A stretch of 64,000 bases of DNA from Macrostomum hystrix (Eukaryota > Animalia > Platyhelminthes), in contig CATNEN010000003.1 in the NCBI GenBank assembly GCA_950097015.1, forward strand, positions 5,270,001-5,334,000, read 5' to 3'. A program made the translations under genes and the position numbers. Below the pieces are notes generated by a model, which was not told where the DNA came from, did no database searches, and worked only from the letters and a program-made list of their open reading frames with translations. Below, in pieces: positions 48,671 through 52,245 of this stretch. Within the stretch, counting starts at the first letter, position 1. Each line of letters starts with the position of its first letter.

Positions 48671-49650
48671 CCCCTTCTTCACGCCTACAGATCAGCAGAT
48701 CAGATAAAGGAGAATTGAATCAAGTTTACAGTTTTTTAACTGTCAAAATACGAAAAGCTTTTATCTAGAACGGATAGCATAGTAATGAGTTATTGTTAGC
48801 TGGTCCAATTCTTTTTAGTCTCGGCAATTGTTCTTGGTCATAATTTCAAATTATTACGAGATCTCGTAATGATCTTTAACTGGCTGTGAGGCTGTAAGAG
48901 CATTAACTCACACACGAATTTCTACAACACTGTCCTATGGTTTCAACTGTATGCTTCTTATCGCTTTAACTTGATTAATTATGATTAATCATAATTAATT
49001 ATTATAATTATGATTATGCTATTTTTACTTTCATATGTAAGATTTTACTATATAACAAACATAAAAAATGTGCGGTCAACTCTTATGTAATGTTCAACTA
49101 TGTTTCCTTTGTTCTTGTGTGGCTTTTTAGCGCATAGAAAGCAGAATTCAGCCACAGAGGCGTAGTACCAGCACTACTTTAAATATATTTACTTTGTCTG
49201 TCTGTCTGTATTCATTTCTGGTATCGTAAGACAATACATTTTTTAACAAGCCATTATTTAGCTGGTTTATTGTTGTTCGTCAAAAATGATGGTCCAGTGA
49301 TTTTATTTCTTTATATTTATTTCACTCGAATAATATTTTATGACATTAAAGATCGTCTCAAAAAATGATGAAATAATTTTGGCTCGAATGACTGGCTCAT
49401 CTAAATGACTCATTCTCTCTAGAGAATAGACTAGAACAAATGCTCACAGAAGCAAATGAAATTTCAGGCCGATCAGCAAATGATTCAATGGAATATTACA
49501 TGTAAATAACATTCTTTTCCCCGTCTATATCCTATCGAATCCCCACTAACTATTTGATCTCTAGAGATTAAAATCGAATGATTTGCTTTTTTCCAACTCT
49601 TTTGCAGATAGCTTCTAGACGAGCGGATCACCCGAGAAATATTGTCGCCT

Positions 49651-49842
49651 ATGGTTGCCTGGCAATTTGTTCGCTTCAGCGTGCTGTTTTTCGCATCGGC
49701 TGCAGTTGGCTCTGAGCTTGTACACAACAGGTACAAACCGTTGTCTAATTTTAATTCTGAATTAGAAGCCGCGCGTGCTCAGAGGCGGCTGCAACAGCAG
49801 CAGCAACAGCAGCAGCACCTAGAACACAATGAAGCTAAATGA
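49651..49842 (+). CDS. UQCC6: Brawnin/UQCC6 (C12orf73, sloth2)-like mitochondrial complex III assembly microprotein, 63 aa; overlaps the NAT9 start
   Basis: [34 protein letters not shown]: one hydrophobic helix followed by G-S-x-x-V-H-x-x-Y-K-P-L, the family hallmark as recalled. This is the first ATG after a strong acceptor (TTTTTTCCAACTCTTTTGCAG, about 49607). Confidence 0.75.
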
Positions 49843-52245
49843 GTTCACCTATTGTGTCAGCGAGTCTTTAGTCCTGGTTCCTTACGAAGCTTATCACGTG
49901 CCTAAATATCACCAATGGATGATGCAGCTTGATTTACTGGAAGCCACTGGCTCTGAGCCTCTGAGTTTAGAGGTGAATTTTTTTGTCGTGTCTAGTCTAT
50001 GGGTTGTCTTCAGTTTGTGTCGTGTCTAGTCTATGGGTTGTCTTCAGTTTGTGTCGTGTCTAGTCTATGGGTTGTCTTCAGTTTGTGTCGTGTCAAGTCT
50101 ATGGGTTGTCTTCAGTTTGTGTCGTGTCAAGTCTATGGGTTGTCTTCAGTTTGTGTCGTGTCAAGTCTATGGGTTGTCTTCAGTTTGTGTCGTGTCAAGT
50201 CTATGGGTTGTCTTCAGTTTGTGTCGTGTCTAGTCTATGGGTTGTCTTCAGTTTGTGTCGTGTCAAGTCTATGGGTTGTCTTCAGTTTGTGTCGTGTCAA
50301 GTCTATGGGTTGTCTTCAGTTTGTGTCATGTCAAGTCTATGGGTTGTCTTCAGTTTGTGTCGTGTCAAGTCTATGGGTTGTCTTCAGTTTGTCATGTCTA
50401 GTCTATGGGTTGTCTTCAGTTTGTGTCGTGTCAAGTCTATGGGTTGTCTTCAGTTTGTCATGTCTAGTCTATGGGTTGTCTTCAGTTTGTGTCGTGTCAA
50501 GTCTATGGGTTGTCTTCAGTTTGTCATGTCTAGTCTATGGGTTGTCTTCAGTTTGTGTCGTGTCAAGTCTATGGGTTGTCTTCAGTTTGTCATGTCTAGT
50601 CTATGGGTTGTCTTCAGTTTGTGTCGTGTCAAGTCTATGGGTTGTCTTCAGTTTGTGTCATGTCAAGTCTATGGGTTGTCTTCAGTTTGTGTCGTGTCAA
50701 GTCTATGGATTGTCTTCAGTTTGTGTCGTGTCAAGTCTATGGGTTGTCTTCAGTTTGTCATGTCTAGTCTATGGGTTGTCTTCAGTTTGTGTCGTGTCTA
50801 GTCTATGGGTTGTCTTCAGTTTGTGTCGTGTCTAGTCTATGGGTTGTCTTCAGTTTGTGTCGTGTCAAGTCTATGGGTTGTCTCTAGTCTATGGGTGGTC
50901 TGTCTATGGGTTGTTATTAATCTATGGGGACTGTAGCCTTGTTGTTAGAGCGTCGGAATCACGTCTTGAACGTCGGGGGGTTGGATTCCCGACTACACTT
51001 GAAAGTTTGTGTCCTTTAGTTCATGACTTAAGTTCACTCTGTTGTGTTAAATGGGTTCCAGCATTAGCTCGGATTCTATTTGAGAGATGGTGTGGCGTCC
51101 CCCCGAGTCCATGGACTGAACAGTCGTACACAGCCTTCAGATGCTCGTGCAATCGCTGCGGCTGTGCTGTCGGATGCACATCTGGCCCAATTAGTGCTGG
51201 TGTTATCAATTATTTTTATCATTACTCGTCTGTGGATTGTCTCTAGTCAGTTTCCTGTTCATCATTTACTCCGCAAATCACAGACTAAACGTTTTTTTTT
51301 CGAATTCTCTCTAGGAAGAATTTGACATGCAGCAAAATTGGCGCAACTCGGATGACAAGCTGACATTTATTGTACTGCACAGGCCGACACTCGAATCAAT
51401 CATTGGGTCAGTGGTGCCTGATGCAAAGGTGATAAATACGATTTAGTTTTCGGAAGAGCTTATTGTTTAATTTATTGTGCTCGCGATTTCAAGTCTCAGC
51501 CAAGAGAAAGCCATTTGAATTTCCTAGGCTTTAATTTAATAAATTGTCAAATTTAGCGGTTGTGGCGCCTCCCCAGTCCATGGACTGAACAGCTGTACAC
51601 AGCATTTGTGTCGGCTGTGGCTGTACATCTTGAGCAACTAGATTTAGTGCCTTTTTGTTTTAATTATTATAATTTTGAGTCGTAAGATTGCTTATTAACT
51701 AGACGATAGGCTTTTAAACTTCTGTTGCCATGGAAACAGTATTCCATAGAATATCAGTTGCCATAGCAACGAAAGTTTGTAGAAAATATTTTATTTTTCC
51801 TTAAAAATCAAATCGCCCGCAGTCGCCAGATGCGTTACCATGGCAACGCCAGCCCGAAGCCGAGATTAATTCAATGATTGGCGATGTGAACGCATTCGTT
51901 ATAGCAGCAGAAGCTGAAACTGATGAAGCCGACGCTAAAGAATTCGAGCTCGAGGTGATGATTGCCGAAGACGTTCACCGCGGACGCGGCCTCGGTCGTC
52001 AAGCAGTCCAGTGCCTCATTGCCTACCTATCCGAGGCCTTGAAAGCCAGGCCTGACCAGTTGCTGGCTAAAATTAACGACAATAATTTCACTAGCCAGCG
52101 AATGTTCACCGGGCCTGGCTTGGAATTCTCTCTGGCGTCCAGGCAGGCCGTGTTCCAGCAGGCCACCTACAGGTGCCCGACTGCCCGACTGCCGCCTAGG
52201 CCTGCCGGTTGGTGCGTGTTGAATTGCGCTGCCCCGCCACTGTGA
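49829..52245 (+). CDS. NAT9: N-acetyltransferase 9 (GNAT family); exons 49829-49972, 51315-51428, 51823-52245; 226 aa
   Basis: MKLNE...LVLVPY...HVPKYHQWM...[27 protein letters not shown]...MIGDVNAF...[14 protein letters not shown]...AKI...N..S. All introns are phase 0 with GT/AG ends. Confidence 0.92.
49983..50912. repeat. 34-bp minisatellite (GTCTATGGGTTGTCTTCAGTTTGTGTCGTGTC[A/T]A)n with 32-bp variants, NAT9 intron 1
   Basis: Visible array starting about 10 nt after the donor. Confidence 0.96.
50926..51222 (+). mobile_element. tRNA-derived SINE family A, diverged copy (NAT9 intron 1)
   Basis: GGGGACTGTAGCCTTGTTGTTAGAGCGTCGG...GGTTGGATTCCC, followed by TTAAATGGG.CCAGCATTAGC and GTCCATGGACTGAACAG. 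Confidence 0.8.
51556..51670 (+). mobile_element. SINE family A 3' fragment (NAT9 intron 2)
   Basis: TGTGGCG.C.CCCCAGTCCATGGACTGAACAGCTGTAC...GGCTGTACATCT and an (ATT)n tail. Confidence 0.65.
51724..51847. promoter_or_regulatory. Cluster of three RFX X-box motifs
   Basis: GTTGCCATGGAAAC (51724-51737), GTTGCCATAGCAAC (51757-51770) and GTTACCATGGCAAC (51834-51847). Confidence 0.55.

What the first reader, a model, noticed from the sequence alone, without database searches (positions are those of the whole stretch)
49590..52245. Probable overlapping bicistron: Brawnin/UQCC6-like microprotein upstream of NAT9
Seen: after a strong splice acceptor (about 49607) the first AUG (49651, context cctAUGg, pyrimidine at -3) opens a 63-codon ORF. 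The next AUG (49829, acaAUGa, purine at -3) opens NAT9 in another frame 14 nt before the first ORF ends, and no AUG lies between them. Established: Brawnin/C12orf73/UQCC6 microproteins are complex III assembly factors with a TM helix and a GxxxVHxxY[KR]P motif, and the Drosophila ortholog sloth2 is on a bicistronic mRNA with sloth1/SMIM4. Inference: Brawnin here has a different partner, and both proteins come from one mRNA by leaky scanning, coupling respiratory-chain assembly to a GNAT acetyltransferase. An alternative is trans-splicing at TTCTGAATTAG (49765), which would yield a NAT9-only mRNA. I am not aware of this pairing being described, and gene finders would probably miss the small ORF.
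Basis: partly seen in the sequence, partly recalled or inferred. Interest (0 to 1): 0.8.

Follow-up and report, generated by a model that had tools for sequence, protein, structure and literature searches.

The report
One flatworm mRNA, two overlapping genes
In a flatworm, assembled RNA shows a single spliced-leader transcript that carries a tiny protein gene resembling the mitochondrial assembly factor Brawnin overlapping the start of the enzyme gene NAT9, and it likely makes both proteins, a new partner for a microprotein that elsewhere shares its mRNA with SMIM4.

Summary
A 63-codon ORF (49651-49842) overlaps the start of an intact 226-aa NAT9 by 14 nt. RNA contigs from 2 of 4 runs laid begin with the Macrostomum spliced leader (SL) at 49608, run unbroken through both starts and splice to NAT9 exon 2. 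The 1181-nt contig matches the three-exon model exactly. No SL was seen at 49766. The peptide is Brawnin/UQCC6-like. It scores 21-22 bits on PF14990 (below the cut-off of 27), but it is the best match in the genome, and its only hit among 1.84 billion proteins (P0034) passes the cut-off. P0034 ends NETK-stop, which fits the same overlap with a NAT9 start, so the arrangement may be conserved (its DNA was not seen). One correction: the SL itself ends in AUG, so the first AUG opens a 36-codon ORF across the Brawnin start. NAT9 likely needs two leaks or a reinitiation. Translation is untested, contigs are not single molecules, and a functional link between the two proteins has no support. Verdict: a new variant of a known kind, the bicistron led by a mitochondrial microprotein.

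The parts
49585..49607 (+). Pyrimidine tract and SL trans-splice acceptor (ends TTGCAG at 49607)
   Evidence: SL-bearing contig ends in X3 and X6; fits the YTNCAG motif of M. lignano; highest pyrimidine content of 22 AGs scored
49608..49972 (+). Exon 1 of the SL-capped transcript: 43-nt leader, the whole small ORF, NAT9 codons 1-48
   Evidence: Unbroken 1181-nt contigs of X3 and X6; length arithmetic exact
49608..49715 (+). Body of the 36-codon ORF opened by the SL's terminal AUG; out of frame with both proteins and overlapping the Brawnin start
   Evidence: no Pfam match; translation untested
49651..49842 (+). Brawnin/UQCC6/C12orf73-like microprotein ORF, 63 aa: N-terminal hydrophobic helix, GSxxVHNxYKPL motif, Gln-rich tail
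   Evidence: PF14990 at 21-22 bits, below cut-off 27; best PF14990 match in G000; sole hit P0034 scores 41.9 bits; ESM Atlas 0.92 to UQCC6 clusters; alignment A2
49829..49842 (+). 14-nt dual-coding overlap: Brawnin C-terminus NEAK-stop in one frame, NAT9 N-terminus MKLNE in the other
   Evidence: Sequence; 8 of 33 NAT9 homologues start MKLNE; P0034 ends NETK
49829..49972 (+). NAT9 coding exon 1; frame closed by a TAG at 49820-49822, so there is no upstream in-frame start
   Evidence: 33 NAT9-family hits; single copy found in G000; sequence
49973..51314 (+). Intron 1 (GT..AG, 1342 nt) with a 34-bp tandem array
   Evidence: Junction seen in X1, X2, X3 and X6
51315..51428 (+). NAT9 exon 2
51823..52245 (+). 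NAT9 coding exon 3 (GNAT domain) to the stop codon
   Evidence: Junction in X3, X4 and X5; PF13302 at 29.9 bits, above cut-off 25.4
52246..53097 (+). 3' UTR through a CT-rich repeat; candidate poly(A) signal AATAAA at 53092-53097 (end inferred)
   Evidence: Contigs run 155 nt (X3) and 523 nt (X4) beyond 52345
48700..49280 (.). Separate RNA contig that stops 327 nt before the SL acceptor; possibly the 3' end of an upstream operon gene (strand and parent gene not shown)
   Evidence: Contigs of X3 and X6; nuclear-receptor gene upstream at about 41861-46834

Best explanation
One spliced-leader-capped transcript, seen as unbroken RNA contigs, carries a Brawnin/UQCC6-like 63-aa ORF overlapping the start of an intact NAT9, and it likely yields both proteins by leaky scanning down a ladder of three start codons. 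Shown: the SL joins at 49608 and supplies AUG1 (-3 U, 36 codons, stop at 49715); AUG2 (-3 C, +4 G) opens the microprotein; AUG3 (-3 A) opens NAT9. Inferred: ribosomes that slip past AUG1 mostly make the microprotein, predicted to be an inner-membrane complex III assembly factor, and those that also slip past AUG2 make NAT9 at a lower level. Because the frames overlap, cleavage after the Brawnin stop would cut NAT9, so this pair would be harder to split than ordinary flatworm operon genes. The two proteins probably share a transcript without sharing a pathway.
For: SL plus unbroken exon 1 plus NAT9 exon 2 in X3 and X6. The X3 contig also holds exon 3, and 24+365+114+523+155=1181. The X4 contig has the same 389 nt upstream of exon 2 (from lengths). 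Both ORFs are the only copies found in G000, and NAT9 is intact and 35-46% identical to the 12 best homologues shown. Start contexts strengthen at -3 from U to C to A. P0034's last four residues fit an MKLN-E/D start in the next frame: 40 of 160000 tetrapeptides do, P about 7e-4 to 2e-3, and 0 of 35 control proteins fit a relaxed version. Precedent: leaky scanning was reporter-tested for sloth1/sloth2 (PMC9681215) and for algal bicistrons (PMC11291117 abstract).
Against: Contigs are not single molecules and drop rare variants. All SL evidence comes from one study (P2), and the tool dropped one loose end inside the CAG repeat 49781-49825. There are no ribosome or peptide data. AUG absence is not significant. 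P0034 has internal Met17 and Met57, which would trap scanning ribosomes if it has the same layout. A predicted stem lies between AUG2 and AUG3 (z -1.96, 9 of 200 shuffles as good; z -0.75 over a wider stretch). The Pfam cut-off is not met. The DNA of P0034 was not seen, and a pattern scan for the joint arrangement in metagenome contigs gave 0. Start-context preferences of this organism were not measured.
Confidence: 0.58

Rival explanations
1. Same bicistronic mRNA, but NAT9 is reached by reinitiation. Either ribosomes translate the 36-codon SL-AUG ORF, which carries them past the Brawnin start, and resume scanning 113 nt to the NAT9 AUG; or ribosomes ending at the Brawnin stop slide back to the AUG that overlaps it.
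For: The geometry fits: the SL ORF stops at 49715 and the next AUG is NAT9's. Flatworm SL AUGs can initiate (PMC9851317 citing Cheng 2006). Stop and start lie close in related cases: 5 nt in the fly and a TAATG overlap in L017. Internal Mets in P0034 and the predicted stem are easier to reconcile with the back-slide version.
Against: Reinitiation falls off with ORF length, and 36 or 63 codons is long (own knowledge). In the fly, weakening ORF1 raised ORF2 output, which favours leakage.
Confidence: 0.17
2. Two mRNAs: the abundant form is in effect Brawnin-only, and NAT9 comes from a minor form trans-spliced (or started) inside the small ORF.
For: Acceptor-like sites fitting YTNCAG lie at 49679 and 49705, and an SL at 49822 would be in frame with NAT9. 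About 30% of M. lignano genes are trans-spliced and 15% lie in operons. Contigs drop rare variants, and one loose end in the CAG repeat was hidden.
Against: No SL loose end and no contig break between 49608 and 49972 in X3 or X6 (depth 9.6 and 32.9). X1's contig has 50 unplaced nt upstream of 49826, more than an SL at 49822 could supply.
Confidence: 0.15
3. The small ORF is a decaying or merely regulatory upstream ORF; the working Brawnin is elsewhere or lost, and the transcript is simply NAT9.
For: The Pfam score is below the cut-off; the tail is a CAG-derived Gln run; no hit in the word-index search. A spliced paralogue could escape the six-frame genome search.
Against: The motif residues G20 S21 V24 H25 N26 Y28 K29 P30 L31 are invariant against two cut-off-passing members. 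The hydrophobic N-terminus is kept (KD19 1.6), and so is the length. It is the best PF14990 match in 220 Mb.
Confidence: 0.07

Closest known systems
Drosophila sloth1/sloth2 (SMIM4/C12orf73) bicistron, also in choanoflagellate, sea squirt and lamprey (PMC9681215; passages and Results section 5 read)
   Same: A Brawnin-family microprotein on a two-ORF mRNA; weak-then-strong start contexts; stop and start close together
   Different: Here the Brawnin-like ORF comes first, not second. The partner is a 226-aa GNAT enzyme, not the paralogous SMIM4. The frames overlap by 14 nt, and an SL AUG precedes both.
Vertebrate BRAWNIN/UQCC6/C12orf73 (PMC7066179; passages read)
   Same: Size, N-terminal hydrophobic segment, family motif
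   Different: Below the Pfam cut-off; shorter N-terminus (residue 5 aligns to profile position 9); Gln-rich tail; localisation and function untested here
Human bicistrons led by a mitochondrial microprotein: STREMI-SLC35A4 (PMC13303939; passages read) and the MIEF1 uORF (listed in PMC7066179)
   Same: An old small mitochondrial protein gene joined upstream of an unrelated main ORF; the partners need not be functionally linked
   Different: The downstream ORF has two introns, so it does not fit the intronless-retrocopy origin proposed there; overlapping frames; a trans-splicing organism
Macrostomum SL operons (PMC8629364; parts 1-2 of 4 read) and SL-created ORFs (PMC9851317; passages read)
   Same: Same SL sequence and acceptor motif; SL AUG opening an out-of-frame ORF
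   Different: Operon genes are normally separated into monocistronic mRNAs; this pair stays together in the contigs seen

Membership tests
Brawnin/UQCC6 (Pfam PF14990 DUF4516) | Score at or above the curated cut-off (27 bits) | tested here: not met
   21.0 bits full length, 22.1 bits for residues 1-45. Filed as Brawnin-like and a likely divergent orthologue, not as a cut-off member.
Brawnin/UQCC6 (Pfam PF14990 DUF4516) | Closest relatives are family members, and it is the genome's best family match | tested here: met
   Sole phmmer hit P0034 (E 6.3e-4) scores 41.9 bits; best of 2 matches in G000; the top three Atlas clusters carry PF14990
   63 aa; KD19 1.6 at residues 1-19; motif invariant in A2; low-confidence model shows helix 3-27, pLDDT 68
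Brawnin/UQCC6 (Pfam PF14990 DUF4516) | Inner mitochondrial membrane location and role in complex III assembly | not testable with these tools
   Shown for the vertebrate and fly proteins only
NAT9 (GNAT acetyltransferase) | Full-length similarity to NAT9, GNAT domain, conserved N-terminus | tested here: met
   33 of 33 candidates hit, many named NAT9; 35-46% identity for the spliced protein; PF13302 above cut-off
SL trans-spliced transcript (Macrostomum type) | Non-genomic SL at the 5' end, derived from an SL RNA gene with a splice donor | tested here: met
   L010 shows the SL followed by GTAAG
Bicistronic mRNA | Both ORFs on one mature mRNA molecule | tested here: inconclusive
   One unbroken contig per run in X3 and X6, from short-read assembly and one study; no long reads
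Bicistronic mRNA | Both ORFs translated from that mRNA | not testable with these tools
   No ribosome profiling or proteomics available
sloth1/sloth2-type bicistron | SMIM4 (PF15114) ORF immediately upstream on the same mRNA | tested here: not met
   Only 43 nt lie between the SL and the small ORF; no SMIM4-like match near the locus. L017 shows the SMIM4-first layout as a control.
Leaky-scanning bicistron | Weak first start, stronger second start, AUG depletion between them | tested here: inconclusive
   Contexts fit the general -3 purine rule; depletion P=0.062, or 0.85 given the peptide; organism-specific consensus not measured

The most novel reading that the evidence does not exclude
The Brawnin-NAT9 overlap is an old, conserved arrangement shared with the distant organism behind P0034, in which Brawnin swapped both partner and position relative to the ancestral SMIM4-Brawnin bicistron. 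In Macrostomum, the spliced leader's own AUG acts as a switch: ribosomes that use it skip the Brawnin start and go on to NAT9, while those that miss it make Brawnin.
Probability: 0.2. Interest if true: 0.72.

Novelty: new variant of a known kind. Interest (0 to 1): 0.5.

Why it matters
It adds a likely flatworm orthologue of a complex III assembly factor that gene finders would miss: the exact protein is absent from a 15-billion-protein collection, and no DUF4516 row appears in an 821-row M. lignano table that lists its UPF0640 gene. It suggests Brawnin entered a second, independent bicistron with an unrelated enzyme, which bears on why small mitochondrial proteins so often ride on shared mRNAs. 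It also offers a compact test, in a transgenic-capable genus, of what the flatworm SL's terminal AUG does when it is out of frame. Practically, RNAi against NAT9 here would also be expected to remove Brawnin.

Tried and rejected
Word-index protein searches with the 63-aa peptide and with NAT9 exon 3: no hits. PDB sequence searches: only chance matches. AlphaFold model: pLDDT 68, pTM 0.30, two helices, so no fold search was run. No run was on record as RNA; splicing and the SL show that X3-X6 are RNA-derived. Pattern scan of metagenome contigs for the Brawnin motif followed by a NAT9 start: 0. Alignment scan: 2 loci from 57 candidates; L017 is a SMIM4-Brawnin pair and L018 is a chance match among prokaryote-like genes. 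SMIM4 was not found in G000 with three queries (L016 is a transposon edge); this does not show absence. M. lignano synteny: no gene-level row for NAT9 or Brawnin in the readable supplements of PMC7806878, PMC5173321, PMC5816591, PMC7336406 or PMC5730564. The supplements of PMC5946080 and PMC12582326 and one large file of PMC7806878 could not be read and may bear on synteny. The 543-nt M. lignano SMIM4 transcript is long enough to hide a second small ORF, so it was not used as evidence. Cheng et al. 2006 is not held and is cited second-hand. Earlier scan findings: nothing in 5 look-ups. A possible next exon at 53387 had no Pfam or Atlas support. A Brawnin-NAT9 fusion protein is rejected: the frames differ, there is no joint inside exon 1, and no such fusion was apparent among the 33 longer hits. 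An NMD argument (Brawnin stop 130 nt before the first junction) was set aside because junction-dependent decay is not established for flatworms (own knowledge).
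Full report
Setting. The window lies on contig C3 of a 220-Mb animal genome. The 5' tag found on its RNA matches the published spliced leader (SL) of Macrostomum lignano (PMC8629364), so the organism is a Macrostomum-type flatworm. 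The tag has 33 exact matches in the genome. Of 4 examined, one (L010) is followed by the GTAAG donor described for the SL RNA gene and shows that the SL ends in ATG.

Observation. The 63-codon ORF (49651-49842), the NAT9 AUG (49829), the 14-nt overlap, the two start contexts and the absence of ATG between the starts are all as stated. That absence is weak evidence. A base shuffle gives none 6.2% of the time, synonymous resampling of the peptide gives none 85% of the time, and 3 of 58 overlapping 175-nt windows in neighbouring exons also have none.

Transcript. In 2 of the 4 runs laid (X3, X6), a 1181-nt contig starts at 49607/8 with 23 non-genomic SL letters, runs without a break or other letters to 49972, and continues into 51315. 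The X3 contig then joins 51428 to 51823 and passes the NAT9 stop. The model 24+365+114+523+155 gives exactly 1181. The X4 contig has the same 389 nt upstream of exon 2, and the X5 contig has 379, with 14 nt before 49608 of unseen nature (arithmetic). X1 and X2, from a second study, confirm only the first junction. No SL end appears at 49766 or anywhere else inside the exon. Limits: these are short-read contigs, not molecules; X3-X6 come from one study; rare forms are dropped; and the tool hid one loose end in the CAG repeat 49781-49825.

The small protein. Pfam's best match is PF14990 (DUF4516), E 2.7e-4, at 21 bits against a cut-off of 27 (22.1 bits without the tail). So the curated threshold is not met. 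Four other lines point the same way. It is the best of 2 PF14990 matches in the genome. Its single hit among 1.84 billion representatives, P0034 (40% identical, E 6.3e-4), scores 41.9 bits. The top three ESM Atlas clusters carry PF14990, the first named UQCC6 (0.92-0.91). Against P0034 and a third member (L017, 51.1 bits), G20, S21, V24, H25, N26, Y28, K29, P30 and L31 are invariant. I call it Brawnin-like and a likely divergent orthologue. Its role in complex III assembly is inferred from the vertebrate and fly proteins (PMC7066179; PMC9681215).

NAT9. The spliced frame gives 226 aa without a stop, 35-46% identical to the 12 best of the homologues fetched. Exon 1 alone retrieves 33 NAT9-family proteins. 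Eight of them, all mosquito or nematode by name or cluster, begin MKLNE exactly like 49829, so this AUG is the real start. A TAG at 49820-49822 closes the frame upstream. One copy was found in the genome.

A hint of conservation. The peptide's last residues NEAK-stop are the other reading of MKLNE. P0034 ends NETK-stop after a poorly conserved tail. Only 40 of 160000 tetrapeptides can be encoded that way; the chance is about 7e-4 to 2e-3 by composition, and 0 of 35 other fetched proteins fit a relaxed version. P0034 also shares the shortened MVxWxxVRF start, and its longest contig is 988 nt, enough for both ORFs. This is indirect. The DNA and taxon of P0034 were not seen, plain descent of the C-terminus could give the same ending, and P0034 has internal Met17 and Met57. 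A direct pattern scan of metagenome contigs found 0. L017, the one genuine locus of 2 recovered, shows the known layout instead: SMIM4, then Brawnin, with a TAATG stop-start.

Flatworm SLs end in AUG (PMC12582326), which can initiate translation (PMC9851317 citing Cheng 2006). Here it sits at mRNA position 33 with U at -3 and opens 36 codons, ending at 49715, across the Brawnin start. The order is therefore AUG1 (SL, weak), AUG2 (Brawnin, -3 C/+4 G), AUG3 (NAT9, -3 A).

Mechanism. Shown: the order, frames and contexts. Inferred: leakage past AUG1 gives Brawnin and leakage past both gives NAT9 (confidence 0.58). Leakage was reporter-tested for the fly sloth1/sloth2 pair and for algal bicistrons (abstract). 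Rivals are reinitiation after the SL ORF (113 nt to AUG3) or after the Brawnin stop (0.17); a minor NAT9-only mRNA spliced at 49679, 49705 or 49822 rather than 49765 (0.15); and a non-functional small ORF (0.07). A predicted stem between AUG2 and AUG3 is marginal (z -1.96; z -0.75 over a wider stretch) but would work against scanning. Nothing here links the two proteins in function; for STREMI-SLC35A4 the authors found no direct interdependence (PMC13303939).

Novelty. Bicistrons led by a mitochondrial microprotein are a known kind, and Brawnin is known from one with SMIM4. The pairing with NAT9 did not turn up. None of the 27 papers listed (of 29) contains NAT9. One search gave 2 papers, neither naming NAT9 or Macrostomum. 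The 25 listed of 1936 lack NAT9, and the 15 listed of 808 lack Macrostomum. Most subscription papers are not searched, and several supplements could not be read. What differs from known cases: the partner, Brawnin in first position, overlapping frames, an intron-bearing downstream ORF, and an SL-supplied AUG ahead of both.

Papers seen. PMC8629364: parts 1-2 of 4. PMC9681215: passages and section 5. PMC7066179, PMC13303939, PMC9851317 and PMC12582326: passages. PMC11291117: abstract and outline. PMC7806878, PMC5173321, PMC5816591, PMC7336406 and PMC5730564: supplement searches only. PMC5946080: nothing readable. Cheng 2006: second-hand only.

Verdict. New variant of a known kind; interest 0.5.

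Noticed in passing
window 48700-49280: RNA contigs of X3 and X6 cover this AT-rich stretch and stop 327 nt before the SL acceptor. It may be the 3' end of the upstream nuclear-receptor gene, which would place the locus in an operon by the 1-kb criterion of PMC8629364; strand and parent gene were not shown.
   Followed up: partly
window 41861-46834: C4 zinc-finger nuclear receptor gene (PF00105) with a long first coding exon and a 3.4-kb intron filled mostly by a tandem repeat; its second exon has no Pfam match.
   Followed up: partly
G000 C15, C17, C42: The SL motif recurs at about 11.6-11.7 kb spacing on three contigs, probably SL RNA genes in a large tandem unit; L011-L013 carry the motif without the GTAAG donor.
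   Followed up: no
L017 91-482: AT-rich metagenome contig with SMIM4 followed by Brawnin, joined by a TAATG stop-start overlap rather than the 5-nt gap of the fly.
   Followed up: partly
window 51090-51210 and 51560-51610: Two related copies of a short dispersed element in the NAT9 introns, matched by many RNA contigs.
   Followed up: no
window 53387-53505: Possible exon after a ctgttag acceptor, about 290 nt past the AATAAA, open in frame with an SL AUG; no Pfam or Atlas support.
   Followed up: partly
window 49611: A second AG 4 nt after the used acceptor would put the SL AUG in frame with the microprotein (77 aa); not seen in the contigs.
   Followed up: partly
window 60045-60821: Adenylate kinase in one long ORF (PF00406).
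   Followed up: no
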